Source: an uncultured Gammaproteobacteria bacterium (GTDB lineage Bacteria > Patescibacteriota > Patescibacteriia > VMEV01 > CAYQCH01). Taken from it: a stretch of 57,019 nt of DNA. Of the stretch, positions 14,764 to 43,621 are shown piece after piece. The DNA lies in the NCBI GenBank assembly GCA_964352335.1, contig CAYGRO010000006.1:4903-61921 (forward strand), written 5' to 3'. The notes below the pieces were generated by a model. It saw nothing but the letters and a program-made list of their open reading frames with translations, was not told the origin of the DNA and made no database searches. The position numbers and the translations under genes are program-made. How positions within the stretch are numbered: the stretch's first letter is position 1; every line of letters begins with the position of its first letter.

Positions 14764-15810
14764 ATGGAACAAATTACCGCAATCAACCTGGGCTACGGTT
14801 TGGGGACAAAGGACTGGCAAGATGAGGCTTGTCGGGCTGTTATGGCTCTTGAGCATGATGGGGCCATCTCCGTTTTTGGTCATGGAGTGGATGACCAACT
14901 TCGCATGCGGATGGTAGATGTCATTTCACATGTCTACCGTGCTTCTACGGAGGTTCAACAACAGTTTGTGAGGCCAGACCTTTTCTACCAGGTTGGGCTG
15001 ACACCTCCAAATACGGAAACACATCGGCAGCATGAAGGGTGGGACCTTTTGCCAAAGCAGCATCGCCCACTAACAAATTTCGACGGCAAGGATGAGCACA
15101 AGTATCGGTGGTTTGATCCCATCGGCCCTGTCGACGTGATTCCCTATAAACCCGTCACCCCAGATATCCCAGGTTTTCGTCAAAGCATGGTTCGATGGGG
15201 GGAGGCGCTGGCATATACCGTGGTCAAAGACCGCCTAGCCAAGATGATCGCCTTTGGCTATGGGCTTCCTGTCGACTACTTTGAAGAAATACTTGCGCGC
15301 GGAGCTCATTTGGTGGCACCCACGGGCACGGAGCTTGGTCGGTGTCTGGAAATGCTCGCTGAGGAAGAGGTGCCCTTCATTAAGCTCGCAGGATTTCACA
15401 ACGACCTCAACTGGGGGACGATTCACGGTCGCGCCACTATCCCTGGGCTTTGGATTTGGACAACCGAGGGCAAGCGCGTGCTTGTCCGAATCAAGGAAGG
15501 TCATTTGCTTTTTCAGGTTGGTCAACAGCTTGCTGCTCAAACGGCTTACAGGATGAAGGCTGGTTATCACGAAGTGGTAATTACGCCCAAGCTGGGAAAA
15601 GAAATCCAAGCCAAGCACCAAGGACAAACATTTGCGTGGAGGATCGGGTCTACCGTATTTGTCACTGCAGATCGTCAAGCTTCTCTGGTGCCGGACGAGA
15701 AGCTCTTCGCAGGGCTAGATCGAGAAGCTCTCATCTTGTCCTACCCTCATCTCTCGATGAGGGTAGACGAGCAAATGCAGGACGAGTTCTCGAAAATCTC
15801 GTTCGCATAA
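14764..15810 (+). CDS. 2-oxoglutarate/Fe(II)-dependent dioxygenase, isopenicillin N synthase-like fold
   Basis: HxD (GFHNDLN), distal His (AGYHEVV) and a WRIGS segment. SD AGGAG upstream, GC-richer than its neighbours, own terminator at 15818-15850. Confidence 0.8.
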   Translation: MEQITAINLGYGLGTKDWQDEACRAVMALEHDGAISVFGHGVDDQLRMRMVDVISHVYRASTEVQQQFVRPDLFYQVGLTPPNTETHRQHEGWDLLPKQHRPLTNFDGKDEHKYRWFDPIGPVDVIPYKPVTPDIPGFRQSMVRWGEALAYTVVKDRLAKMIAFGYGLPVDYFEEILARGAHLVAPTGTELGRCLEMLAEEEVPFIKLAGFHNDLNWGTIHGRATIPGLWIWTTEGKRVLVRIKEGHLLFQVGQQLAAQTAYRMKAGYHEVVITPKLGKEIQAKHQGQTFAWRIGSTVFVTADRQASLVPDEKLFAGLDREALILSYPHLSMRVDEQMQDEFSKISFA

Positions 15811-19412: not shown

Positions 19413-21173
19413 TTACTGGAGAAAGCTTCCTGCTTGTAGCGACCAAAGCTTTTTATACAGGCCGTTTCTCTTTTTGAGTAATTGTAGGTGAGTTCCTTCT
19501 TCTATAATGGCACCTTTTTCCATGACCAAGATGCGGTCCATTTCCATAATAGTTGAAAGCCTATGAGCAATAACGATGGTCGTTCTATTTTTCATAAGGT
19601 TTTTCAAAGCTGCTTGGATTTCAGATTCAGATTCAGAATCTAAACTACTTGTAGCTTCGTCCAAAACTAAGATAGGTGCGTTTTTTAAGATCGCTCTGGC
19701 AATAGCAACTCTTTGTCTTTCACCGCCAGAAAGCTTAACTCCGCGTTCACCAACAAAGGTGTCATATTTTTTAGGGAGTTCTTGAATAAAGTCATGGCAA
19801 CGAGCGAGTTTTGCCGCTTCAATAATTTCTGCTTCGGTTGCATTTGGTTTTCCGTATTTAATATTTTCTTTTAATGTCCGGTGAAACAAAATAGGGTCCT
19901 GTGGTACAAGAGAAATTTGTTGCATTAAGCTTTCTTGTGTCACTTGAGAAATTTTTTGATCATCAATAATGATTTTTCCTCGATCTACATCAAAAAAGCG
20001 GAAAAGCAATTTAACAATGGTCGATTTACCGGCACCAGAAGGGCCAACTAGGGCAACTTTTTCACCAGCTTGAATATGCAGGTTAAAGTTAGAAAGAATT
20101 TTTCTTGTTTTTTGATAATTGAAATTTACTTTGTCAAAAATAATTTCTCCTTTATCTACGGCAAGTCTTTTAGCCATTTTTGTATCTGTGATTTCAAGTG
20201 GGGTCATGAAGATTTCTGTCATTTCTTCTGCATCTGCTAATGATTCATAGAGGGCACGAATAACATGACTAAATTCCCAGACTTCTCGTCCAATAATAAT
20301 TAGATATGCTTGAATAAGAACAATATCCCCCACGCTCACTAAGCCTTGGCTCCATAGAGTGATGGCATAATAGATTAAACCAATTTCTACAGCAGTAATT
20401 GTAAGCCCTTGAAAAACATTGAGAAATTCATTAATCCTCCAGCTTTTCTTTTGCAAGTCTCTTCTTTCCGTAGTTGTTTTATCAAAGAGTTTTGATTCGC
20501 TATTTTGAGCGGCAAATAACTTTACATTAATGGCATTTGTTATTGTATCTGCCAAGACACCTGTCACCTTTGAGTCGGCTTCCGCTTGCAATAAGTCATA
20601 CTTCAATCGATATTGCACAACAATATAGGAGATGATTATAAATAGAAGTGACCAGGTTAACAGGATGATTCCAAAAACTTGGTTTACAATCCAAAGCGTA
20701 ATGGTTGCGACAATTATTCTTACGGTAAGTCCAATAAGGTCCCATTGGAAGACATCAAAAATACGGTTATAAGATCTATAAAATCGATTCACTTTTTTTA
20801 CTAATGATCCAGCGAAGTTATCGAGAAAAAAGGAGTAGGAATGTTTATGTAAAAAGGAAAAGCAAGTATTGGCAAGATCATTCATGGTATGTGTTACTGC
20901 CTTGATGGCGCAAAATGCAGAAGTTCTATACCCAATATTTACAAGCAAATAGGTACCTGCCAAGTACCCTAAAATCTTAATTAGCTGAGGGATGATGATT
21001 TCTTGGCTTTCTCCACTAGTAAGTACGTCAAAAAACCACTTATACATAAGCGGTGATGCCAAGCCAGCCCCAATGGCCAATAGTAATGCAAAAAACCCTA
21101 ATGTATAGAGTCCCGCATATGGGCGCATGTGGTTTTTATAGATTTTTAGTGTTTCTTTCGTTGATACTTTCAT
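19413..21173 (-). CDS. ABC exporter, fused permease/ATPase (MsbA/Atm1-like)
   Basis: Six-TM domain, GPSGAGKST, LSGGERQR, LDEATSSLD and IAHRLST motifs. ATG at 21173 preferred. Confidence 0.93.
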   Translation of the reverse strand: MKVSTKETLKIYKNHMRPYAGLYTLGFFALLLAIGAGLASPLMYKWFFDVLTSGESQEIIIPQLIKILGYLAGTYLLVNIGYRTSAFCAIKAVTHTMNDLANTCFSFLHKHSYSFFLDNFAGSLVKKVNRFYRSYNRIFDVFQWDLIGLTVRIIVATITLWIVNQVFGIILLTWSLLFIIISYIVVQYRLKYDLLQAEADSKVTGVLADTITNAINVKLFAAQNSESKLFDKTTTERRDLQKKSWRINEFLNVFQGLTITAVEIGLIYYAITLWSQGLVSVGDIVLIQAYLIIIGREVWEFSHVIRALYESLADAEEMTEIFMTPLEITDTKMAKRLAVDKGEIIFDKVNFNYQKTRKILSNFNLHIQAGEKVALVGPSGAGKSTIVKLLFRFFDVDRGKIIIDDQKISQVTQESLMQQISLVPQDPILFHRTLKENIKYGKPNATEAEIIEAAKLARCHDFIQELPKKYDTFVGERGVKLSGGERQRVAIARAILKNAPILVLDEATSSLDSESESEIQAALKNLMKNRTTIVIAHRLSTIMEMDRILVMEKGAIIEEGTHLQLLKKRNGLYKKLWSLQAGSFLQ

Positions 21174-21315
21174 AAGGATAACCGGTATGGTTTCTACGCA
21201 AAATTTTGGATATAAACCTATAGATAAATCAAACCCCAAGGCGATCCCTTGCGGTTGAGAGTTATAATCACTCTATTATATTAGACGTTAAAACAAGGAA
21301 AATGTTACATATGGG

Positions 21316-21461
21316 AACCCTCCCTCGTTCAGCCTGCTTTGCAGACTAAACATTCCCTCCCTTTTCAAGAGAGGGTTTTTGTTTTTATCTGATGCTATTC
21401 CCTCTCTCTTGAAAAGGGAGGGAAATGCGAAATGCCCCACGGGCATGAGCGAGGGAGGGTT
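21316..21461. repeat. Composite GC-rich REP-like palindrome
   Basis: AACCCTCCCTCG...CGAGGGAGGGTT outer arms; inner TTCCCTCCCTTTTCAAGAGAGGG / CCCTCTCTCTTGAAAAGGGAGGGAA. Confidence 0.75.
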
Positions 21462-21465
21462 CAAC

Positions 21466-21493
21466 AAAAAAACCCCCATTCAGGGAGTTTTTT
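21466..21493 (-). terminator. Intrinsic terminator closing the minus-strand orphan unit
   Basis: Minus strand: AAAAAACTCCC-TGAAT-GGGGGTTTTTTT directly after the stop at 21492. Confidence 0.7.
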
Positions 21494-21665
21494 AATTTCG
21501 ATATCTATTAAAAACATTAATTGAATCTTGTAATTCAGTATGGATTCGATCAACATTTGCTTCCAGGACCTGTGCTTGTTCTCGCATAGATTTCATCATG
21601 AACCAATTTGTGATTCCGAGTAAGACCAGCGATGACAAGATGACAAGTGTAAGTGTCATAGTCAT
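21492..21665 (-). CDS. 57-aa single-TM plus coiled-coil small protein (not in ORF track)
   Basis: MTMTLTLVILSSLVLLGITNWFMMKSMREQAQVLEANVDRIHTELQDSINVFNRYRN*, followed by a terminator. Confidence 0.65.
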   Translation of the reverse strand: MTMTLTLVILSSLVLLGITNWFMMKSMREQAQVLEANVDRIHTELQDSINVFNRYRN

Positions 21666-21688
21666 TTGTATAAGTTGTAAAAGAGGAG

Positions 21689-22072
21689 GGTCGGCGCGCC
21701 AAGGAGGTCCTGTGCATTGTGCAGCAGGGGCTCAGCGCGCCGACCACGAGGGGAAACATTATGGCATTCTCAGCCAAAGAAAGTCATGAAGTCATTCATG
21801 TCTATCTTCGACAGAGAAGAAAAGCGTTGCATCGTACAGTTACTGGGTTATAAATCTTTTCTAACTCGATATGCGGTGCTTTTCATTCTTCTGTTTAGGC
21901 CCGACCGCTGTCATAATCATGGTTCATGGTGCATGGTTCATTTCGTAAAACGTAGTTTACAAATTGTCCCATGTGCCATGTAATGTGTCTCATGATAATA
22001 ACAATGGTCGGGGCGGCAGGGAGCTAAGAGGTCGGCATCATGGTGATGTCAACATTGAGCTCCCTGCCGCGC
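21689..22072 (-). ncRNA. Chain of four long hairpins (structured intergenic RNA)
   Basis: Stems GGTCGGCGCGC/GCGCGCCGACC, ACAGA..GAAAAGCGTTGCAT/ATGCGGTGCTTTTC..TCTGT, GCCCGACC..ATCATG/CATGAT..GGTCGGGC and GCGGCAGGGAGCT/AGCTCCCTGCCGC. Confidence 0.55.
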
Positions 22073-22089
22073 GCGGGCGACGAAGGCGA

Positions 22090-22233
22090 TTAGAAGCTGT
22101 TACCGCCGGCGAGCGGGTTCGGGCGGCTGAAGCGGCTCGAGATCGGGATCGACAGCTTCGTGCTGGTCGTGTCCGTCTTGGCGCTGTTGCTGGGCTTCTG
22201 GTCGGTCTTCGGCTGCGTGGTCGTGTTCTTCAT
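22090..22233 (-). CDS. 47-aa Thr/Ser/Lys-rich peptide (not in ORF track)
   Basis: CTGAGGGGAAC SD before ATG; MKNTTTQPKTDQKPSNSAKTDTTSTKLSIPISSRFSRPNPLAGGNSF*; G/C-ending codons. Confidence 0.65.
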   Translation of the reverse strand: MKNTTTQPKTDQKPSNSAKTDTTSTKLSIPISSRFSRPNPLAGGNSF

Positions 22234-22376
22234 AGGTTCCCCTCAGGTTCCTCGGATTACTTTGGCAACGTGCCTCAGTTTCACCGCTTCATTTATTCAA
22301 TCGTGTTGAATAAATGGAGTGGTGGGCCGTGCAGCTCCTCGAGGCGGGGTGGGCTTCGAGGGCTGCACGGCCACGG

Positions 22377-22709
22377 CTAGGCGGCGAGCTGAAGGACGAG
22401 GGTCTTGCCCTCAGAAAAGCTAGCTTCGGCCTCTTCCGCAAGGTGCATGATCCGCGTGTCGTCTTCTGACGATGGGACTTGCAATGCGGGGTGAAGGATC
22501 ATTTCGATCCGCAGTTCTTGCTCGGGGGTGAGCGTGAACCAGGACTTCACATGCCCTAGGTTCATCGAGCTCCCGTGCACTTGCACAAGATCTTCGATGA
22601 CTTCAATTTTGTAGAGGTGGTCGGACAATCCGAGCACATCTACGAGAAACTGGCAGAGCAAGATATCGCTAAGCGTCATCTCCTTTGCCGTCTTTTCGAA
22701 GGTATGCAT
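22377..22709 (-). CDS. Orphan hypothetical protein, 110 aa
   Basis: AAGGAGG SD before ATG at 22709; ends ...LVLQLAA*. Confidence 0.75.
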   Translation of the reverse strand: MHTFEKTAKEMTLSDILLCQFLVDVLGLSDHLYKIEVIEDLVQVHGSSMNLGHVKSWFTLTPEQELRIEMILHPALQVPSSEDDTRIMHLAEEAEASFSEGKTLVLQLAA

Positions 22710-22824
22710 GATTGCCTCCTTTCCTCCGCTTTTACTCACCTCAGTTGAGATGAAAAAAAGTGGAGGCCGGCCGGATCCTAGAAGGTTCCGGCCGGCGCGT
22801 CTCTCGGTGGTCGCGCTAGCTGTG

Positions 22825-23547
22825 CTAGGCGGCGACGGACTTGTTGAGCGCGTTGATGCGCTTGATCGCCTCGATGACGAGGTGGTCGTCGTGGATGCGG
22901 TTCAGCATCTTCTCCGAGCACTCACCGCGCTTCAGCTTCGTCTCGAGGTGCTCGACGAGGTCGTTGATGAACCTCATCGTCTGCGTGTTCACCAGAGCGG
23001 ACTTGATCGTCCGGTACTGGCCCTCGTCGACCTGCTCGTATGCCGCCTTGATCAGCGACTGATCCATGACCATCTTCTGGACGCTAGGTGCCGCAGCCAT
23101 GATCACCTCGTTGACGATGTCGTGGACCTCGATTGGTGTCTGAGCGTTGCTCAGTGCCGTCTTGATCTTGATCCACTGCTCCGAGATCTTGTCGATCTCG
23201 GTGTCGAGGCCGACGGAGTACGGGTTCGTCTCCTGCTTGGTCTCGACCCAACACTGCTCGCCGGTCTCGACGTCCGTGATCAGCACCTCCTTGGTGCTGG
23301 TCTCAGAAACGAAGTAGAGGTTATGCTGGTCGTGGCATGAGACGAGTCGCTCGCTCTGGCTCTCGTGCTCGGCGATCCTCTCGAACTCCGTGGGCCAGTA
23401 GCCGTCGGGGTGCACGTGCTGCGTCTGCTTCACGAGCCTGCACATCTGCTCCCAGTTGGAGCTGACGGGCTTCTTGGTCGGGTAGGCGACGCCCTGCATG
23501 CTGGCCTCGAATGCTTCTCGGTCAGCGTCGTTGGTCTTGGTGGTCAA
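22825..23547 (-). CDS. Orphan hypothetical protein, 240 aa
   Basis: CTGAGGGGAAC SD before TTG at 23547; strong GC3 bias; helical C-terminal half; ends ...NKSVAA*. Confidence 0.8.
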   Translation of the reverse strand: MTTKTNDADREAFEASMQGVAYPTKKPVSSNWEQMCRLVKQTQHVHPDGYWPTEFERIAEHESQSERLVSCHDQHNLYFVSETSTKEVLITDVETGEQCWVETKQETNPYSVGLDTEIDKISEQWIKIKTALSNAQTPIEVHDIVNEVIMAAAPSVQKMVMDQSLIKAAYEQVDEGQYRTIKSALVNTQTMRFINDLVEHLETKLKRGECSEKMLNRIHDDHLVIEAIKRINALNKSVAA

Positions 23548-23559
23548 TGTTGTTCCCCT

Positions 23560-23928
23560 CAGAACAGTGTGTCTGTAAACAGCGGATTGCTGAATACAGA
23601 GAGTTCTCCCCTTAGGTAAGTACTCTATAATATTCAGCAAAAGATCCTGATTGAAGATGAAGATAAGGCCTCAGTTGGAAGGGGAAGTATGTAAAGAGCG
23701 GATGAGGTGCTTATCTTCATCTCTCGTCAGGATCGAGTGATGTTTTTCATCTAATAAGAGAAGAGAAAGGCCATACCGAGGTATGGAGATACGTAATGGT
23801 CATGCCCTGATCGTAGCCGGAGCCACAATGCTTGGGTCAATATCATTACAAGAGAGTCCTGGGTTCGAAAACTTACGACTCCGTACTCTCCTCTTATAAG
23901 ATGAAAAGAACTTCCATTCCCAACTTGA
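23560..23928 (-). ncRNA. Candidate structured leader RNA (RNA C) with a long-range pseudoknot
   Basis: Three long helical domains between the promoter and the first SD; the 5' 15-mer is complementary to the loop of domain 2. Confidence 0.6.
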
Positions 23929-23934
23929 CGAATC

Positions 23935-23963
23935 ACTATAACATATGTTGTAAAATGTGTCAA
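23935..23963 (-). promoter_or_regulatory. Sigma70 promoter of the orphan unit
   Basis: Minus strand TTGACA-17 bp-TATAGT with a TGn extension. Confidence 0.8.
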
Positions 23964-24166
23964 GAGGTGTGAGTTAGATTAGCAAAACATAGCTAATATT
24001 AGCTAAATACAAATGTCATAAAATACAAACATTCGAAAAAAAGAATGAAGTAGTTTTATCAAAACCAAGAAAAGAAAGCAAGAGATAAATAAGAAAAGCC
24101 TTTGATTTACGGGGGTTGTCGCTTGTGGTAGGATTTGGGTATATAAAGGAGGCAGAAGCTTGTCCC

Positions 24167-24261
24167 TTACCGCCCCCTCAATCCCCCTCCTAGAAGGAAG
24201 GGGGAAGGCTCTAGTCTTGCTGCTTTGCTCCCCTCCTTCTAGGAGGGGCTGGGGGCGGTAA
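24167..24261. repeat. TTACCGCCCCC-family REP-like palindrome without insert
   Basis: TTACCGCCCCCTCAATCCCCCTCCTAGAAGG...CCCCTCCTTCTAGGAGGGGCTGGGGGCGGTAA. Confidence 0.9.
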
Positions 24262-24291
24262 TCATTTATAAATTTACGTTTTTACTTATTT

Positions 24292-26700
24292 ATGCCTTAC
24301 GATCCAAAATCGATTGAATCTGCCATGAAAAAATATTGGCAAGATATTGATGCTTTCAAAACGGATAATAATTCTGAAAAACCAAAGAAGTATATTTTAG
24401 ATATGTTTCCTTATCCGTCTGGGGCTGGGTTACATGTGGGTCATGTAGAAGGGTATACCGCTACAGATATCGTGGCTCGTTATTATCGTATGAAAGGATT
24501 TGAAGTTTTACATCCAATGGGGTGGGATGCTTTTGGTTTACCAGCCGAAAATTATGCGATGAAAGTAAATAAGCATCCACGTATTACAACGGATGAAAAT
24601 ATTCAAAATTTTACCAAACAAATTAATTCCATTGGAAAAAGCATTGACTGGACAAGAGAAGTAGATACAAGTTCAGAAAATTATTATAAATGGACCCAAT
24701 GGTTTTTCTCTTTGCTCTATAAAAATGATTTAGCCTATAGAAAAGAAGCTCCCGTTAATTGGTGTGAAAATGACCAAACCGTTTTAGCCAATGAACAAGT
24801 GGTAGATGGAAAATGTGAGCGATGTAAAAACGAAGTTATTCAAAAAAATCTTCCGCAATGGTTTTTTAAAGTCACTGCTTATGCAGACAGACTTATTGAT
24901 GACTTAGAAACACTAGATTGGCCAGAACCATTAAAGCAAATGCAAAGAAATTGGATCGGCCGAAGCGAGGGAGCGGAATTAACATTTAAAATTCCAAATT
25001 CAGAATCACAAATTGATGTTTTCACCACTCGACCAGATACATTAATGGGGGCTACTTATTTAGTTATTGCACCAGAGCATCCATTGGTAGATGAATTAAC
25101 CATTAAAACACAAAAAGAAGCCGTCAGTAATTATGTTGATGAAGCTGCTCATAGAACAGAATTAGAGAGAACAGGGACTGATCAAAAAAAGACGGGTGCG
25201 TTCACTGGTTCTTTTGCTATTCATCCTATAACGGGAGAAGAATTGCCAATTTGGATTGCCGACTATGTTTTAACAAGTTATGGGACAGGAGCTATTATGG
25301 CTGTCCCTGCGCATGATGAAAGAGATCATGCTTTTGCTGTTAAATATGAATTGCCAATTATCGAAGTGATTCAACCAGAAGACATGGTTCAGGATACAGA
25401 TGAAATGGGACATAAATGTTATGCGGGTGCTGGTACATTAATTAACTCAAGTGAATTTGATGGATTAGATAATGAATTGGCAAAAAAACAAATTACAGAT
25501 TCTGCAAATGGAAAGTTAACCAAAACGTATCGACTACGTGACTGGTTATTATCTCGACAACGTTTTTGGGGAGCACCTATTCCTATCATTTATTGTGATG
25601 GCTGTGGTCCGGTTTTGGTTCCAGAAAAAGATTTACCAGTTGTCTTACCAAAAGACGCCGACTTCAAATTATCTGGGGATGGGAAATCGCCTTTGGCTCG
25701 TGTAGAGGGATTTGTAAATACCACTTGTCCAACTTGTGAACAACCTGCCAAACGAGAAACAGATACCATGGATGGTTTTGTAGACAATTCTTGGTATTAC
25801 TTTAGATATTTAGATCCTAAAAATGATAAAGCATTTGCCGATAAAAAATTATTGCAACATTGGATGCCAGTAGATATGTATGTTGGTGGAGCCGAACATG
25901 CCGTTGGTCATTTAATCTATTCTCGATTCTTTACCAAAGTCTTAAAAGATAATGGCTATGTTGATTTTGAAGAACCATTTACAAGACTTATTAATCCAGG
26001 ATTAATTTTGGCAGAAGACGGATTAAAAATGTCTAAGTCATTAGGTAATGTGGTAAATCCAGATGATGTTGTTGCCGAATATGGAGCAGATACCTTGCGC
26101 ATGTTCGAAATGTTCTTAGGCCCACTTTTAGATGCCAAGCCATGGGATACAAAAGGAATTGTTGGAATCAAACGATTCTTAGAAAAAGTGTATCGATTAT
26201 TTGAAGAAGATATTGTGCGAACAGACGCTCCTGCAAATGATGAATTAACGGCACACTTGCACAGAACAATTAAAAAGGTGACAGAAGATATCGAAATCTT
26301 GCACTTTAATACGGCTATTTCTTCTATGATGGAATTTGTAAATGCGGTACAGAAAAAAGGAGAATTACCAGTTGTAGAAGGAGAAGTCTTTTTAAAACTT
26401 CTTTCTCCCTTTGCTCCGCATATGACAGAATTCTTATGGAAAGAATTAGGTCACGAAGATTCTTTAGGAAAACAAGATTGGCCAATTCATGATGAACGAC
26501 TATTGGTGGAAGAAGAAATCACCATGGCTGTTCAAGTTAATGGAAAAGTACGTGATACAATTACAGTACCAAGCGATGCAGATGAAGCTTTGGCAAAAGC
26601 AACCGCCTTAAAGAGTGAAAAAATCCAAAAATTTGTCGACGGAGCAGAAATTAAAAAAGTGATTTATATCGCAGGTAAGATTTTGAACTTAATTGTGTAG
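24292..26700 (+). CDS. leuS: Leucine--tRNA ligase
   Basis: MFPYPSGAGLHVGH, FTTRPDT, GTGAIMAVPAHD, KMSKS and VQVNGKVR motifs. Confidence 0.98.
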   Translation: MPYDPKSIESAMKKYWQDIDAFKTDNNSEKPKKYILDMFPYPSGAGLHVGHVEGYTATDIVARYYRMKGFEVLHPMGWDAFGLPAENYAMKVNKHPRITTDENIQNFTKQINSIGKSIDWTREVDTSSENYYKWTQWFFSLLYKNDLAYRKEAPVNWCENDQTVLANEQVVDGKCERCKNEVIQKNLPQWFFKVTAYADRLIDDLETLDWPEPLKQMQRNWIGRSEGAELTFKIPNSESQIDVFTTRPDTLMGATYLVIAPEHPLVDELTIKTQKEAVSNYVDEAAHRTELERTGTDQKKTGAFTGSFAIHPITGEELPIWIADYVLTSYGTGAIMAVPAHDERDHAFAVKYELPIIEVIQPEDMVQDTDEMGHKCYAGAGTLINSSEFDGLDNELAKKQITDSANGKLTKTYRLRDWLLSRQRFWGAPIPIIYCDGCGPVLVPEKDLPVVLPKDADFKLSGDGKSPLARVEGFVNTTCPTCEQPAKRETDTMDGFVDNSWYYFRYLDPKNDKAFADKKLLQHWMPVDMYVGGAEHAVGHLIYSRFFTKVLKDNGYVDFEEPFTRLINPGLILAEDGLKMSKSLGNVVNPDDVVAEYGADTLRMFEMFLGPLLDAKPWDTKGIVGIKRFLEKVYRLFEEDIVRTDAPANDELTAHLHRTIKKVTEDIEILHFNTAISSMMEFVNAVQKKGELPVVEGEVFLKLLSPFAPHMTEFLWKELGHEDSLGKQDWPIHDERLLVEEEITMAVQVNGKVRDTITVPSDADEALAKATALKSEKIQKFVDGAEIKKVIYIAGKILNLIV

Positions 26701-39586: not shown

Positions 39587-40193
39587 ACTCACACGAAATT
39601 TGAAACGTCTTCTCATCGAGTTAGACCTCTTTCTCTAAAAGCATTTATGCCTAAACGACTTAAAAGTGAAGACTCTTTATAAGAGTAATAACTAGCCTGC
39701 ATAATCTTTACGAGAAAAAAAGATTATACGGCTCACAGCCGTTTTTTTTGTTCCTCAAAATTCAGTAGATATAAGTAGGTACGAAGCACGCTTCGTGCCC
39801 TACTATCTGTTTACTGATTAGCTCGTTGACAACTGAATATTCTACGAAATTATATATATGATCTAAAACGTCATGTGCATCTTTACAGTACATCAAGTAC
39901 AAAAACTACAAATGATAAGTGCTACATTCTCTTGAGCATCACAAAAATTCTTTTTGTGGTTGTCTCAAGAAGGGTAAATGAGTGGATGCCTCGACATCTA
40001 GAGACGATGAAGGACGTGACAGCCTGCGAAAAGCTTCGGTTAGGTGGCTAGTAACCTATGACCCGGAGATGTCCGAATGGGGAAACCCCGCTCTTGTTAT
40101 AAAGAGTGAACTTATACTGAATACATAGGTATAAGTGGTGAACCTGGGGAATTGAAACATCTTAGTACCCAGAGGAAAAGAAAACAGTAAAAC

Positions 40194-40261
40194 CCATTAT
40201 AAATCTGGTTTGTAGAGACGTAATATTTTACGACTCGACAAGATAACCAGATTTATAATGG
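40194..40261 (+). other. Hairpin insertion (IVS/expansion) in 23S near E. coli position ~230
   Basis: CCATTATAAATCTGGTT/AACCAGATTTATAATGG arms inside the normally short GAAAAGAAA...GATTCC segment. Confidence 0.8.
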
Positions 40262-40607
40262 ACGTGATTCCCTTAGTAGTGGCGAACGAACGGGGAACAG
40301 CCTAAACCTTATCGGTGTGTCTTTTTGTGAAGTATGAGATTTATCTTATATCGATCAATTTGATTAAAGGATTACACCGTTGCCGATTTGGTGTCATGAG
40401 ACCTATTGTTAGAGCGTGTAATAGCTCTAGATAGGATAGCGGAAATATAGTTGAAGTTCCTGGAATCGGAACGCCAGAGAGGGTGACAGCCCCGTACACG
40501 AAATATTTTCTCTACCTATGAATACGGTTCTCGAGTACAGCGGGACTCGCGAAATCCTGTTGGAATTTGGGGTGACTATGCTCTAAGGCTAAATACTACT
40601 AGATGAT

Positions 40608-40644
<37 letters not shown>

Positions 40645-40819
40645 CACCCCGGTGAGGGGTCGTGAAATAGACCTGAAACCATTTACTTACAAGGAGTCGG
40701 AGGGCCTTATGGCCTGACGGCGTGCCTATTGAAGAATGAGCCAACGACTTTATTCTGTGTTGCCTGTTTAATTCCTTATAGGAAGAAGGCTCAGTGAAAG
40801 CGAGGCTTAACCGCCGAAA

Positions 40820-40885
40820 TGAGATAAATAGAATTTTGTACAGACGCAATTATTGCGTCTGTACTTAAAATTTCTATTTATCTCA
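40820..40885 (+). other. Hairpin insertion (IVS/expansion) in 23S near E. coli position ~650
   Basis: TGAGATAAATAGAA/TTCTATTTATCTCA arms around the perfect palindrome GTACAGACGCAAT-T-ATTGCGTCTGTAC. Confidence 0.8.
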
Positions 40886-42151
40886 ATCTGCAGCACAGAT
40901 AAGACCCGAAGCCGGGTGATCTATCCATGGCCAGGTTGAACCTCTATGAAAATAGAGGGGAGGACCGAACCCACTCGCCGTGCAACACGAGGGGATGAGT
41001 TGTGGATAGCGGAGAAATTCCAATCGAACCCGGCAATAGCTGGTTCTCCCCGAAATAGTTTTAGGACTAGCCTGTAATTGTCCCCTCTGGGGGTAGAGCA
41101 CTGTTTGAGGTTCGGGCCTTCGGGTACCGTCCACAGACAAACTCCGAATACCAGAGGACTAAAGTTACAGAGTTACACCATGGGGGCTAAGCTCCATTGG
41201 TGAAAAGGGAAACAGCCCAGATCGCAAAATAAGGTCCCTAAATCTTCGTTAAGTGTGAAAAGTGGTGAAAAGACTTATACAACGAGGAGGTTGGCTTAGA
41301 AGCAGCCATCCTTTAAAGAAAGCGTAACAGCTCACTCGTCTAGTCTTTTTGCGCTGAAAATGTAACGGGGCTAAACGAAGTACCGAATTTGCGGGTTCAA
41401 ATCTAGTTTACTAGATATGGGCGGTAGGGGAGCGTTCCAGTCGGCATTGAAGCCCAAACGTGAGAATGGGTGGAGTGACTGGAAGTGAGAATGTTGGCAT
41501 GAGTAGCAAAAATGCGGGTGAGAACCCCGCACACCGTAAACCCAAGGTTTCCTGGGCTATGTAAATCAGCTCAGGGTTAGTCGGTCCTAAGGCAAGGCCG
41601 AAAGGCGTAGTCGATGGACAGCAGGTTAATATTCCTGCACCACGGTGATAACTGATGGAGTGACGCTTGATTTGGGTCTCTGCGCAATTTTGGTTATGTG
41701 CGTTGGGGCAAGCAACTGGTGGTATAGGAAAATCCGTACCGCATATACAGGAGTTTGCATCGCAAGAGGAAGCCTTCGGGTGGAATCAAGAGAGACGAGA
41801 GTTGAGCCAAGAAAAACTTCTAGGGCTAATTATCAACGTGTCCGTACCGTAAACCGACACAGGTGGGTGAGGCGAGTAGCCTCAGGTGCACGAGAGAAAC
41901 ATGGTTAAGGAACTCGGCAAAACAGCGGTCGTACCTTCGGTATAAGGCCTGCCTACGTTCTTCGGAATTGTAGGCCGCAGCGAAAGACTCCAAGCGACTG
42001 TTTACCAAAAACACAGGTCCCTGCTAAAGCGCAAGCTGATGTATAGGGGCTGATGCCTGGCCAGTGTCCGAACGTTAAGAGGAGAGGTGAATCACTTCGG
42101 TGAGGCAGCCTTGAATCCAAGCGCGGATGAACGCCGGCGATAACTATAATC

Positions 42152-42557
<406 letters not shown>

Positions 42558-42818
42558 AAGTTCCGACCTGCACGAACGGCATAACGATTTGGAGACTGTC
42601 TCAACCATGTACTCGGCGAAATTGCAATGCGAGTAAAGATGCTCGCTACGCGTAGCAGGACGAAAAGACCCCGTGAAGCTTTACTACAACTTGATATTGT
42701 CATATTGTCTCAACTGTTCAGCATAGGTGGGAGCCTTCGGGCACCAGTGAGATACCACCCTGTTGTTATGGTATGACTAACCTTAGGCCGTGAAACCGGC
42801 CACGGGACAGTATCTGGT

Positions 42819-42850
<32 letters not shown>

Positions 42851-43073
42851 AAGTAACGGAGGCGTTTACAAAGGTTGGCTAGTTCCGGATGGAAATCGGG
42901 ACGATAGTGTAAAGGCATAAGCCAGCTTTACTGCAAGACAGACTCGTCGCGCAGTTACGAAAGTAGAACTTAGTGATCCGACCGTTCGATATAGGACGGC
43001 GGAAGCTCATCGGATAAAAGTTACTCCGGGGATAACAGGCTGATTGTGCCCAAGCGTCCATAGCGACGGCACA

Positions 43074-43110
<37 letters not shown>

Positions 43111-43144
43111 GTGAAGAAGCTCCCAAGGGTTTGGCTGTTCGCCA

Positions 43145-43196
<52 letters not shown>

Positions 43197-43621
43197 CTAT
43201 CCGCTACGCGCGTTAGAAATTTGAGGGGCCCTTTCTCTAGTACGAGAGGACCGAGAAGGACGAACCTCTAGTGTACCAGTTGTTCCACCAGGGGCATTGC
43301 TGGGTAGCTACGTTCGGGTTAGATAAGTGCTGAAGGCATCTAAGCACGAAGCTGTTCCCAAGATTAGATTTCATATCCTCCTAGGAGACTACTAGGTTGA
43401 TAGGCTGCAAGTGTAAGTACAGTGATGTATTAAGCTGAGCAGTACTAATGGATTTGAGACAACCACTAAACGAAGTTTTAGTGATTGTTTAAAGAGAATA
43501 CATAAATTGCACTTTCAAACGTAGTTTGTAAAATGCGCATGACGTTTTCGATTGTTATATATCGAAGTAGAATATTCATCACCTCATTGGAGCGTGGTAT
43601 CTCAATTTTGAGATCTCGTGC

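What the first reader, a model, noticed from the sequence alone, without database searches (positions are those of the whole stretch)
21466..23963. 2.5-kb orphan unit alternating structured RNA blocks with four unknown ORFs
Seen, on the minus strand: a near-consensus promoter, a ~380-nt folded leader, a 240-aa ORF, a hairpin, a 110-aa ORF, two hairpins, a 47-aa ORF, ~390 nt of four long hairpins, a 57-aa TM/coiled-coil ORF and a terminator. The ORF core is much GC-richer than the chromosome, two ORFs share the SD context CTGAGGGGAAC, and REP-like palindromes flank both sides (21316, 24167). No integrase, RT or nuclease motif is visible. Inference: an undescribed RNA-plus-small-protein system (ribonucleoprotein, toxin/antitoxin-like module or domesticated element).
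Basis: partly seen in the sequence, partly recalled or inferred. Interest (0 to 1): 0.8.

Follow-up and report, generated by a model that had tools for sequence, protein, structure and literature searches.

The report
Conserved leader RNA driving GC-rich orphan genes
A tiny-genome (CPR) bacterium carries, next to its leucyl-tRNA synthetase gene, a family-conserved folded leader RNA and strong promoter that drive three fast-evolving, unusually GC-rich genes of unknown function, one example of about thirty such islands in this genome.

Summary
The described anatomy is real. It is not an assembly chimera: contigs from other samples bridge both junctions at flank-like depth.

It is a composite, not one RNA-plus-protein machine.

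1. The promoter, a palindrome upstream of it and the 5' leader are conserved, divergent from leuS, in three genomes of this CPR family. The leader core is a four-way junction; 19 of its 42 pairs show compensatory changes. It is followed by a hairpin showing a conserved 25-nt CU-rich loop. It matches no Rfam family.
2. The three GC3-rich ORFs (GC3 0.68-0.98; genome 38% GC) are orphans. Another genus carries unrelated GC3-rich ORFs behind the same leader.
3. The 3' hairpins look like terminators and small repeats. ORF4 is a separate, conserved, host-like 55-aa membrane protein gene.

The unit is one of about 30 GC-rich islands here. They mostly encode family-less, fast-diverging proteins, and several share the promoter-upstream palindrome.

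Most likely the leader regulates variable accessory cargo in cis (inferred). Cargo function, and why synonymous sites stay GC-rich, remain unexplained.

The parts
23991..24004 (.). Perfect palindrome AGCTAATATTAGCT just upstream of the -35 box; operator-like site
   Evidence: Read directly in the sequence. Related palindromes sit at the same place in G001, G002 and G004. In G000, GCTAAWWTTAG lies within 400 nt upstream of 6 of 17 ORFs with GC3>=0.7, against 19 of 865 native ORFs. It is not enriched in G002.
23935..23963 (-). Sigma-70-type promoter TTGACA-17-TATAGT with TG extension
   Evidence: 11 of 12 matches. The promoter is conserved in G001 and G002.
23744..23907 (-). Leader module 1: a four-way junction made of a ~20-bp closing stem and three hairpins. 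The middle hairpin ends in the conserved GGCU(C/U)CGGCUAC with a UNCG-type loop.
   Evidence: In 3 sequences, 42 pairs are 92% paired and 19 pairs show changes on both sides. 0 of 500 shuffles reach this; slid controls give at most 5 such pairs. Model R1 finds one copy each in G000, G001 and G002.
23643..23734 (-). Leader module 2: a long hairpin whose ~30-nt loop holds the conserved CU-rich stretch CGCUCUUUACAUACUUCCCCUUCC (23675-23700)
   Evidence: Folds. The same loop sequence sits on a non-homologous stem in G002 and lies at the cut end of the G001 contig. The loop contains the complement of AGGGGAA.
23548..23642 (-). G000-specific hairpins, then the ribosome-binding context CTGAGGGGAAC of ORF1
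   Evidence: This stretch is absent from G002, where about 45 nt separate the loop hairpin from the first ORF.
22825..23547 (-). ORF1: 240 aa, TTG start, GC3 0.86, acidic, no signal peptide; orphan
   Evidence: The only relative among 1.84 billion representatives is P0002. P0002 matches ORF1 in every one of the first 23 aligned residues. AF2 pLDDT 41.6.
22753..22794 (-). GC-rich hairpin plus U7: an intrinsic terminator after ORF1
   Evidence: (z = -6.3 for the spacer) and the sequence itself.
22377..22709 (-). ORF2: 110 aa, GC3 0.68, helical; its small family ends in an invariant SEGKTLVLQLAA
   Evidence: P0004 74%, P0005 56% identity. AF2 pLDDT 67, about 80 over residues 10-75. No Foldseek match at E<=0.001.
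22282..22372 (-). Two hairpins between ORF2 and ORF3, without a U-run
   Evidence: z = -7.5.
22090..22233 (-). ORF3: 47 aa, GC3 0.98, Thr/Lys/Ser-rich, probably disordered
   Evidence: It has the same CTGAGGGGAAC context as ORF1. No homologue search was run for it.
22013..22070 (-). GC-rich hairpin after ORF3. A variant strain's contig leaves the window sequence at 22083, next to this hairpin.
   Evidence: z = -4.4; loose end in run X4 at 22083.
21761..22012 (-). AT-richer long hairpins. Part of this (about 21755-21852) resembles short stretches at five other loci and carries a 49-nt indel between strains.
   Evidence: All 9 strain substitutions over 21885-22043 are compatible with the fold: 7 fall in unpaired positions and 2 give G-U pairs.
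21689..21745 (-). GC-rich hairpin followed by CUCCUCUUUU: the likely 3' end of the cargo transcript
   Evidence: z = -6.2. The Logan unitig break also falls here.
21492..21659 (-). ORF4: a 55-aa single-pass membrane protein with an amphipathic tail, host-like codon usage and no Shine-Dalgarno; a separate native small gene
   Evidence: Homologues at 82-89% identity start at MT(L/F)TL. Not found in G002. The ABC_membrane match (E = 0.008, below the cut-off) is judged spurious.
21473..21486 (-). Small terminator hairpin plus T-run after ORF4, overlapping the REP-like element
21311..21493 (.). REP-like palindromic repeat, downstream flank
   Evidence: Copies at 80-84% identity on C1 and C8, and shorter ones elsewhere.
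24160..24274 (.). REP-like palindromic repeat, upstream flank, lying between the unit and leuS
   Evidence: Copies at 77-82% identity on C3, C11, C4, C9, C1, C16 and C5.

Best explanation
The stretch is a transcription unit made of parts with different histories.

1. Fixed control region. This is a palindromic operator-like site, a near-consensus promoter and a roughly 290-nt structured 5' leader RNA. The leader holds a four-way junction capped by a UNCG-type hairpin, then a hairpin displaying a conserved 25-nt CU-rich loop. The region is inherited vertically in this CPR family, divergent from leuS.
2. Variable cargo. These are small, GC3-rich, fast-evolving or replaceable orphan protein genes, each closed by a GC-rich hairpin.
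3. Behind the cargo lie terminator-like and repeat-like hairpins and an unrelated native 55-aa membrane protein gene.

Inferred mechanism: a regulator bound at the palindrome and the strong promoter set transcription. The leader acts in cis on read-through, stability or translation of whatever lies downstream. Its CU-rich loop is able to pair with the purine-rich ribosome-binding sites.

Shown: the anatomy, conservation and covariation of the leader, non-conservation of the cargo, the coding periodicity, genuine genomic continuity, and membership of a genome-wide class of GC-rich accessory islands.

Inferred: cis-regulation, the role of the loop, and an accessory (host-interaction or conflict) role for the cargo.
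For: Continuity
- Logan contigs from other samples of the same study bridge both junctions: X2 covers 20874-22070 and X3 covers 23477-24165.
- In the likely source run, depth is 15.9, 13.2 and 13.5 across flank, island and flank.

Leader
- A homologous promoter and leader lie upstream of leuS in G002 and G001.
- All three fold into the same four-way junction.
- 19 of 42 pairs show compensatory changes and 92% of cells are paired. 0 of 500 shuffles match this; slid controls give at most 5 pairs.
- The covariance model finds one hit per genome: 142-166 bits in G000, G001 and G002.
- The conserved loop is carried on non-homologous stems in G000 and G002.

Cargo
- GC at codon positions 1, 2 and 3 is 0.54, 0.35 and 0.86 for ORF1.
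- Relatives are P0002 only for ORF1, and P0004 and P0005 for ORF2.
- The G002 unit carries five other ORFs with GC3 0.91-1.0 and no BLASTP similarity to ORF1-3.

Class
- There are 32 stretches of at least 500 nt at 55% GC or more.
- ORF GC3 is bimodal: 865 ORFs lie below 0.40 and 144 at 0.45 or above.
- Six other islands inspected show the same layout of promoter, leader, GC3-rich ORF and hairpin.
- 15 of 20 island proteins have no Pfam family at E<=0.01.
- GC3-rich ORFs find G002 homologues far less often than native ORFs, and at about 33% against 60% median identity.
- The palindrome is enriched upstream of GC3-rich ORFs.
Against: - Only three leader sequences exist, all from one family. The tested structure was derived from those same sequences, so the covariation statistics are generous.
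- No RNA data exist, so the transcription start, read-through past the ORF1 terminator and any cis effect are all untested.
- A cis-regulator normally keeps the same downstream gene family. Here the downstream genes differ, which fits a stand-alone RNA gene equally well.
- Loop pairing with ribosome-binding sites is not specific. Against 51 native start regions that carry an SD-like motif, the cargo sites rank only at the 14th-18th percentile.
- The palindrome enrichment was not reproduced in G002: 1 of 29 against 7 of 916, p = 0.22. In G000 it may partly reflect that islands carry their own promoters.
- The ORF sets used for genome-wide counts are crude. They are longest ORFs of at least 100 aa chosen greedily, and they include antisense shadow ORFs.
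- ORF3 has no homologue evidence.
Confidence: 0.55

Rival explanations
1. The leader is a stand-alone, family-specific non-coding RNA gene, either trans-acting or protein-binding, with its own promoter. The GC-rich ORFs are simply accessory genes that have landed in the permissive spacer behind it.
For: - The RNA is conserved while the downstream genes are not.
- There is one copy per genome at a fixed locus.
- A 25-nt conserved single-stranded loop suits binding of a partner.
- A strong terminator follows ORF1, so the unit is not an obvious single operon.
Against: - No terminator separates the leader from ORF1 in G000, or from the first ORF in G002.
- No promoter-like site was found between the leader and ORF1.
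- No extended complementary target for the loop was found in G000 or G002.
Confidence: 0.2
2. The GC-rich core is recently imported foreign DNA, a cassette or remnant of a mobile element from a GC-rich donor. It inserted at a hot spot beside leuS, and the leader is merely the 5' UTR of whatever was there before.
For: - There is a sharp compositional jump at the ORF1 start and after the last GC hairpin.
- The cargo differs between genera.
- One low-depth contig in run X4 leaves the window sequence at 22083, next to the ORF3 stop.
- REP-like repeats flank the unit.
- A GC-rich phage-like contig (C10) sits in the same bin, and G002 has islands of 68-74% GC with an integrase-like ORF.
Against: - The amino-acid make-up does not fit a donor with GC3 of 0.86-0.98. 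GC2 is 0.35-0.41 and FYMINK/GARP is 23/25 for island proteins. C10 shows 19/33 with GC2 0.49.
- GC-richness starts at the start codon, not in upstream flanking DNA.
- No recombinase is nearby; tyrosine recombinases lie only on C12, C1 and C10.
- No similarity to phage records or PHROGs.
- 8 of 20 island proteins do have diverged homologues in G002, so part of the class is old in the family.
Confidence: 0.15
3. One reading: one dedicated RNA-plus-small-protein machine (a ribonucleoprotein, a toxin/antitoxin-like module or a domesticated element) in which the RNAs and the four ORFs work together.
For: - Structured RNA and ORFs alternate tightly, and every spacer folds far better than shuffles.
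- ORF1 and ORF3 share a ribosome-binding context (95).
- Homologues of ORF1 and ORF2 come from contigs of the same length (1333 nt). An ORF2 homologue and an ORF4 homologue both come from JGI contigs of 15607 nt.
- ORF4 is a small membrane protein preceded by a highly folded RNA, a layout that recalls type I toxins (recalled).
Against: - The leader occurs without ORF1-4 in G002.
- ORF4 is 82-89% conserved where ORF2 is 56%, and it has host-like codons, so it has a different history.
- No TA, defence, nuclease, RT or RNA-binding family matches.
- About 30 other islands show the same alternation of promoter, leader, ORF and hairpin with unrelated proteins.
Confidence: 0.07
4. Assembly or binning artefact: GC-rich DNA of another organism spliced into a CPR contig.
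For: - The bin contains GC-rich contigs. C10 is 60% GC and phage-like, and C15 and C22 are partly GC-rich.
- Unitig breaks fall at 21697-21719 and at about 24192.
Against: - Contigs from three further runs of the same study cover the unit, and two of them bridge the compositional junctions.
- Depth matches the flanks.
- The unitig breaks coincide with palindromes and repeats.
- A same-family genome from a different assembly has the same layout at the same locus.
Confidence: 0.02

Closest known systems
Cis-regulatory 5' leader RNAs and riboswitch-like leaders
   Same: It is a conserved, covarying multi-helix structure lying between a promoter and the first ORF. It also holds a pyrimidine-rich element able to pair with ribosome-binding sites.
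   Different: The downstream genes are not conserved. No ligand or expression platform can be identified. It matches no Rfam family and is restricted to one CPR family.
Integron cassette arrays / CALIN clusters (features recalled)
   Same: There is a fixed promoter platform followed by small, mostly orphan, same-strand ORFs. Each ORF is followed by an imperfect hairpin. The array differs in composition from the chromosome and in content between relatives.
   Different: No integrase lies on the contig. The hairpins are unrelated to each other. By eye they show no shared core sites, and no attC model was run. At least one hairpin is a plain intrinsic terminator.
Anti-defence (for example anti-CRISPR) operons under an operator-controlled strong promoter (recalled)
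   Same: A strong promoter with a palindrome drives small, acidic proteins without known families that turn over quickly between relatives.
   Different: It is chromosomal and beside leuS, not in a phage. No HTH repressor gene is in the unit, and there is no similarity to any PHROG or PADLOC model. The resemblance is one of style only.
Small RNAs with unpaired C-rich loops that pair with Shine-Dalgarno sequences, such as the S. aureus Rsa RNAs (recalled; only the title and start of the abstract of PMC2790875 were seen, in the listing)
   Same: A conserved UUCCCC-containing stretch is presented in a hairpin loop.
   Different: Here the loop lies in a 5' leader. Its pairing is no better than for ordinary SD-bearing genes, and no trans target was found.
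REP / MITE-like intergenic palindromes
   Same: The two flanking palindromes and part of the 3' hairpin block are multi-copy and palindromic, and the latter is polymorphic between strains.
   Different: The leader and most of the 3' block are single-copy in the genome.

Membership tests
Conserved structured RNA (new motif) | Homologous sequence at a syntenic locus in several genomes | tested here: met
   G000, G001 and G002 all carry it divergent from leuS. R1 scores 142-166 bits. G003's contig ends 72 nt upstream of leuS, so it cannot be judged. G005 lacks it. G004 gives a weak 23-bit hit resting on the closing stem only.
Conserved structured RNA (new motif) | Base pairs maintained by compensatory changes | tested here: met
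   19 of 42 pairs; 0 of 500 shuffles; slid controls give at most 5. Caveat: only 3 sequences, and the structure was derived from them.
Riboswitch / cis-regulatory leader | Association with the same downstream gene family across genomes | tested here: not met
   The G002 cargo is unrelated to ORF1-3.
Riboswitch / cis-regulatory leader | Ligand- or factor-dependent switch between alternative structures | not testable with these tools
   Needs probing or reporter assays.
Known Rfam family | Score at or above a family's gathering threshold | tested here: not met
   Searches gave only sub-threshold miRNA or leader-like hairpin hits.
Integron cassette array | IntI tyrosine recombinase adjacent, or at least attC sites with conserved core sites | tested here: not met
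   PF00589 hits lie only on C12, C1 and C10. The hairpins share no sequence. No attC covariance model was run.
Toxin-antitoxin module (type II) | Adjacent small genes, one of them from a toxin or antitoxin family | tested here: not met
   No Pfam or PADLOC family for ORF1-4.
Type I toxin-antitoxin (ORF4 with upstream RNA) | Small hydrophobic toxin plus an overlapping antisense RNA | not tested
   ORF4 is 55 aa with one membrane helix. No antisense promoter or RNA was examined, and the long polar tail is atypical (judgement).
Phage / prophage genes | Similarity to phage protein families or phage records | tested here: not met
   PHROGs: none for ORF1-3. tblastn against 50,697 phage records: none for ORF1 or ORF2.
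REP-like repeats (flanks) | Palindromic, intergenic, multi-copy in the genome | tested here: met
Protein-coding genes (ORF1-3) | Codon-position periodicity and protein-level conservation | tested here: met
   GC at positions 1/2/3 is 0.54/0.35/0.86 for ORF1 and 0.60/0.33/0.68 for ORF2. ORF3 GC3 is 0.98. Homologues exist for ORF1 and ORF2. ORF3 has only periodicity and the shared start context.

The most novel reading that the evidence does not exclude
This CPR family keeps fixed RNA 'expression platforms' (operator, promoter and a conserved folded leader) at set chromosomal sites. Behind them, genes are swapped or evolve very fast while their synonymous sites are driven to nearly pure G/C (GC3 0.86-1.0). 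This happens whether the host genome is 38% or 50% GC.

That would imply a dedicated, localised process. Candidates are recombination with biased gene conversion at these sites, or selection for a special mode of expression. The process would maintain a recoded accessory gene pool, plausibly the genes used in dealing with the host cell or with phages.
Probability: 0.15. Interest if true: 0.85.

Novelty: new variant of a known kind. Interest (0 to 1): 0.6.

Why it matters
CPR bacteria have minimal genomes, and most of their lineage-specific genes are unexplained.

This locus provides three things:
- A new, covariation-supported structured RNA that is specific to one CPR family.
- A clear case where regulatory RNA is conserved while the genes behind it are not.
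- An entry point to about 30 islands whose genes keep extreme synonymous GC content while the rest of the genome has drifted to 38% GC.

Two results would show how ultra-small episymbionts evolve their accessory, possibly host-interaction, genes:
- The polymorphism spectrum in the islands points to biased conversion or to selection.
- The leader is shown to gate expression.

If the islands turn out to be ordinary imports, the finding reduces to one new RNA motif plus orphan genes.

Tried and rejected
Function of the proteins
- Pfam, PHROGs and PADLOC on ORF1-4, the five G002 cargo ORFs, P0002 and P0005 gave nothing over a cut-off.
- The ESM Atlas gave no usable hit for ORF1 or ORF2.
- The AF2 model of ORF1 is too poor to search (pLDDT 41.6).
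- The ORF2 model has no Foldseek PDB match at E<=0.001.
- The pdb_via_wide library was not available.

More copies elsewhere
- The search for related loci with the ORF2 alignment found none in the metagenome, viral or genome collections.
- A degenerate leader pattern found 0 matches in metagenome contigs.
- The ORF2 profile gave only three chance-level hits (E of 0.007-0.009) in 401 same-class genomes.
- R1 gave two short hairpin hits in 150 other class genomes.
- The cluster look-up returned no names or accessions.

Ideas dropped
- ORF4 or the folded blocks as remnants of a second ABC transporter: tblastn of the neighbouring ABC protein on 21240-24291 found nothing.
- The C-terminal ..LAA / ..VAA as an ssrA-like ClpX degron: no ClpX zinc-finger was found in the genome, and the organism's own tmRNA tag ends PVLA.
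- Specific pairing of the loop with cargo start sites: it looked strong against all crude start regions (top 2% of 727). Against SD-bearing ones it did not.
- A trans target for the loop: none of useful length was found.
- A conserved palindrome regulon: enrichment appears in G000 only.
- Islands as one gene family: all-against-all BLASTP of 143 island ORFs found one true paralogous pair.
- C10 as the source of the cargo: no similarity.

Expression
- No RNA holder was listed among the 4 runs found.

Literature
- Two full-text searches returned nothing relevant. Only the listings were seen and no paper was read.
- Nothing here shows that the phenomenon is unpublished beyond those two searches.
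- Supplementary files were not consulted.

Full report
SETTING

The window is contig C6:4903-61921 of a 1.165-Mb, 22-contig genome rated 100% complete and 0.3% contaminated. Overall GC is 38.5%. The 23S rRNA carries a group I intron. The closest LeuRS relatives in named genomes are CPR MAGs labelled Paceibacterota, Doudnabacteria and 'Saccharibacteria', at 51-59% identity. The host is therefore a CPR/Patescibacteria bacterium.

THE OBSERVATION

- Promoter: TTGACA-17-TATAGT at 23963..23935, 11 of 12 matches with a TG extension.
- Leader: 418 nt that fold at z = -7.4.
- ORF1: 22825-23547, 240 aa, starting at TTG.
- ORF2: 22377-22709, 110 aa.
- ORF3: 22090-22233, 47 aa.
- Spacers: z = -6.3, -7.5 and -4.4.
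- A 430-nt 3' block with z = -11.3.
- A small membrane ORF and a terminator.

GC reaches 58% per kb and 66% per 100 nt, against 33-41% around it. CTGAGGGGAAC occurs exactly twice in 57 kb, each time 3-4 nt before a start codon, of ORF1 and of ORF3. An exact 11-mer repeat somewhere in 2.5 kb is not rare by my arithmetic. The same offset to two start codons is. The flanking palindromes belong to multi-copy families.

NOT A CHIMERA

Four runs of one biofilm study hold the stretch. Logan contigs of those runs were laid on 20000-25500.
- In the likely source run, a 2496-nt unitig covers 21697-24192. This explains the '2496' contig recorded for P0001 and P0003.
- Depth there is 15.9, 13.2 and 13.5 across flank, island and flank.
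- In other samples, a contig spans 20874-22070, from the ABC gene into the first GC hairpin. Another spans 23477-24165, from the ORF1 5' end through the leader to the upstream repeat.
- Unitig breaks coincide with palindromes.
- Run X4 also holds a variant. It has 9 substitutions and a 7-nt deletion over 21726-22083, a 49-nt skip at 21755-21805, and 50 unmatched letters beyond 22083, next to the ORF3 stop. This is a hint, from one contig at depth 6.3, that another strain carries different cargo.
- All 9 substitutions are compatible with the predicted fold of the minus-strand RNA. Seven fall in unpaired positions and two turn A-U or G-C into G-U.

THE PROTEINS ARE ORPHANS

- ORF1 has one relative among 1.84 billion cluster representatives and in the 5.8-billion-protein index. 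This is P0002, 189 aa. It matches ORF1 in every one of the first 23 aligned residues, which supports the TTG start, and diverges strongly after about residue 36.
- ORF2 has two relatives, P0004 (74%) and P0005 (56%). All three share an invariant C-terminal SEGKTLVLQLAA.
- Nothing passes a cut-off in Pfam, PHROGs or PADLOC.
- There is no tblastn hit in 50,697 phage records and no Atlas hit.
- The AF2 model of ORF1 is unusable (pLDDT 41.6).
- ORF2 gives a small helical bundle with pLDDT about 80 over residues 10-75. It has no PDB fold match at E<=0.001.
- Coding is supported by strong codon-position periodicity. GC at positions 1/2/3 is 0.54/0.35/0.86 for ORF1 and 0.60/0.33/0.68 for ORF2, and ORF3 has GC3 of 0.98. 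Protein-level conservation in the few relatives also supports it.
- ORF4 is different. It has host-like codons and no Shine-Dalgarno. Three homologues at 82-89% identity start at its second Met, so it is 55 aa.
- One ORF4 homologue (P0007) and the 56%-identical ORF2 homologue (P0005) both come from JGI contigs of 15,607 nt. This is probably the same contig, which I could not fetch.
- Its weak ABC_membrane hit is not backed by any ABC remnant in the region.

THE UNIT IS ONE OF MANY

- Excluding C10, the genome has 32 stretches of at least 500 nt at 55% GC or more.
- GC3 was measured on a crude ORF set: 1014 longest ORFs of at least 100 aa, chosen greedily. The distribution is bimodal. 865 ORFs lie below 0.40 (mean 0.24) and 144 lie at 0.45 or above, 37 of these on C10.
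- Six other islands read in full show the same layout. An AT-rich upstream region carries a TTGACA-type promoter. A folded leader and a ribosome-binding site follow. GC-richness switches on at the start codon. The ORF mostly ends in TAG and is followed by a GC-rich hairpin.
- I picked 20 island proteins, the main high-GC3 ORFs from 17 of the 32 GC-rich stretches. Of these, 15 have no Pfam family at E<=0.01, and only a PKD domain passes a curated cut-off. Several have lipoprotein-like N-termini (by eye).
- The island proteins are unrelated to each other, except for one paralogous pair.
- Their composition is decoupled. GC3 is 0.81 on average, but GC2 is 0.41 and FYMINK/GARP is 23/25. Native proteins show 29/21.5. 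The GC-rich phage-like contig C10 shows 19/33 with GC2 of 0.49.
- The tRNA set is minimal: 37 genes found, with a single U34 tRNA each for Gly, Ala and Pro. These codons are therefore not matched by dedicated tRNAs.

THE DECISIVE COMPARISON

G002 is a genome of the same family with LeuRS 73% identical. It is about 50% GC throughout. Divergent from its leuS it carries a unit with the same architecture.

Conserved between G000 and G002:
- a palindrome, GCTAATTTTAGC;
- the promoter TTGACA-17-TATAGT;
- blocks of the leader, namely 77% identity over 90 nt at the promoter, GGUGGCUCCGGCUACG, and CGCUCUUU(C)ACAUAC(C)UUCCCCUUCC.

Not conserved:
- G002 carries five other ORFs of 92, about 177, 47, 77 and 39 aa. 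Four of them have measured GC3 of 0.91-1.0, and the GTG-start ORF was not measured. Each is followed by a hairpin.
- They show no BLASTP similarity to ORF1-3.
- No ORF1-4 homologue exists anywhere in G002.

Other genomes of the order:
- G001 has the promoter and leader upstream of leuS as well. Its contig ends 96 nt after the leader core.
- G003's contig ends 72 nt upstream of leuS.
- G005, from another family, has other genes there.

LEADER STRUCTURE

All three leaders fold on their own into the same four-way junction of 164-177 nt.

On the MAFFT alignment A4, RNAalifold predicts 42 pairs, and 19 of them have changes on both sides. With that structure:
- 92.1% of cells are paired;
- all five measures exceed 500 of 500 shuffles;
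- sliding the 3' partners by 1-3 columns drops paired cells to 40-50% and compensated pairs to 1-5.

In the 20-bp closing stem the inner GAGGAGAG/CUCUUCUC is conserved, while the outer 10 pairs differ completely in sequence. The middle hairpin ends in a C(UCCG)G or C(UUCG)G loop. The stability of UNCG loops is recalled knowledge.

Caveats: there are three sequences from one family, and the structure was derived from them.

A covariance model (R1) gives these results:
- one hit per genome in G000, G001 and G002, at 142-166 bits;
- no hit in G003 or G005;
- a 23-bit hit in G004 that rests on the closing stem only, although it is preceded by a similar palindrome and promoter;
- nothing convincing in the other genomes of the 151-genome class search, only two hairpin-sized hits.

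A second module follows. It is a long hairpin whose roughly 30-nt loop carries the conserved CU-rich 25-mer, held on non-homologous stems in G000 and G002. Neither module matches Rfam.

WHAT THE LOOP MIGHT DO

The loop contains the complement of AGGGGAA, the core of the ORF1 and ORF3 start context.
- Duplex energies with the ORF1-3 start regions are -12.7 to -14.7 kcal/mol. This is in the top 2% of 727 crude native start regions.
- Against the 51 native regions that contain an SD-like motif, they rank only at the 14th-18th percentile. The G002 cargo behaves the same way.
- So the loop is a generic anti-Shine-Dalgarno-like element. Sequestration of ribosome-binding sites is possible but is not specifically supported.
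- No long trans target was found.

THE PALINDROME

- GCTAAWWTTAG lies within 400 nt upstream of 6 of 17 ORFs with GC3>=0.7 and of 9 of 99 with GC3>=0.5.
- For native ORFs the figure is 19 of 865. The odds ratio is 4.5 with p = 0.001 for the 0.5 cut.
- In several cases it sits directly before a TTGACA box.
- In G002 it is rare (13 sites) and not enriched: 1 of 29 against 7 of 916, p = 0.22.
- Islands carry their own promoters while many native genes sit inside operons, and this inflates the contrast.

HOW THE ISLANDS EVOLVE

- Native G000 ORFs find a G002 homologue in 674 of 865 cases, at a median of 60% identity.
- ORFs with GC3 of 0.5-0.7 do so in 13 of 82 cases, and those with GC3>=0.7 in 5 of 17, both at about 33% identity. 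Shadow ORFs lower these fractions.
- Of the 20 chosen island genes, which include ORF1 and ORF2, 8 have tblastn hits at 24-36% identity.
- Of 19 island leaders (one dropped because it had no upstream sequence), 5 hit G002, three of them over 167-199 nt at 66-72% identity. For one of those three, C1:1271, the protein has no hit.
- The pattern 'leader kept, cargo fast or replaced' is therefore not unique to this unit.
- Native GC3 is about 0.55 in G002 and 0.24 in G000, while island GC3 is 0.8-1.0 in both. Something keeps synonymous sites G/C-rich in these genes, whichever way the host genome has drifted.
- Three candidate causes remain open: repeated import from a GC-rich pool, local biased gene conversion at recombination hot spots (an idea recalled from the literature, not read here), or selection on the mRNA. 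I could not separate them.

VERDICT

It is not one RNA-protein machine.

The best reading is a conserved control region that drives variable, GC3-rich accessory cargo, with REP-like repeats and a separate native small membrane gene alongside. That control region is the operator-like palindrome, the promoter and the two-module leader RNA.

The cis-regulatory role is inferred. A stand-alone ncRNA is the main rival. Cargo function is unknown: the proteins are cytoplasmic and acidic, and no family, fold or defence match was found.

Noticed in passing
whole genome G000 (for example C1:78462-79445, C4:63912-64370, C9:27272-28186, C8:27208-29643): About 30 GC-rich islands sit in a 38% GC genome. Each is a self-contained promoter-leader-ORF-hairpin unit with GC3 of 0.75-0.98. 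Most of the proteins match no family, and some have lipoprotein-like N-termini or PKD/Ig-like domains.
   Followed up: partly
G002 (same family), all contigs: The sister genus is about 50% GC, against 38% here, with LeuRS 73% identical. This is a large GC shift within one CPR family. G002 has its own islands of 62-74% GC, one of them (C1:318700-333300) with an integrase-like ORF.
   Followed up: partly
G000 contig C10 (37 kb, 60% GC); also C15 and C22: C10 looks like a phage genome of a GC-rich host. By eye it has terminase-, portal-, DnaB- and tail-like ORFs, plus a Pfam integrase hit. It may be mis-binned and is unrelated to the unit.
   Followed up: partly
window 42172-42487: A group I intron lies inside the 23S rRNA gene (39958-43466).
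   Followed up: no
window 14764-15810 (C6:19666-20712, + strand): A second GC-richer stretch in the window (51% GC per kb) holds a 348-aa ORF with GC3 of 0.55. It was not examined.
   Followed up: no
G000 C8:35532-36119 and C1:1271-1771 with their upstream 400 nt: The leaders of two other islands are 69-72% identical over 167-199 nt to G002 loci. Their proteins are only 28% identical or undetectable. This is the same 'leader kept, cargo not' pattern.
   Followed up: partly
window 21755-21805 and 22083 (run X4): There is strain-level variation: a 49-nt indel inside the 3' hairpin block, and one contig that departs from the window sequence right at the ORF3 stop.
   Followed up: partly
G000 genome, tRNA genes: Only 37 tRNA genes were found. 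Gly, Ala and Pro each have a single U34 tRNA, no tRNA-Asn was detected, and there are an unusual tRNA-Phe(AAA) and a tRNA-Ile(UAU).
   Followed up: no
G000 C1:150763-151161: The tmRNA has the predicted tag AKTLTRAKNVLANAFSFSAVPVLA. No ClpX zinc-finger domain was found in the genome.
   Followed up: no
G000 C3:98846-99757 and C8:3825-4697: A paralogous pair of GC3-rich orphan proteins (66% identical) has a 33-35% identical homologue in G002 (C3:98787-99446).
   Followed up: no
G000 genome-wide start regions: Only 51 of 727 crude native start regions contain an SD-like motif, while all cargo ORFs of the unit have purine-rich sites. This may be an artefact of taking the longest ORF as the start.
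   Followed up: no
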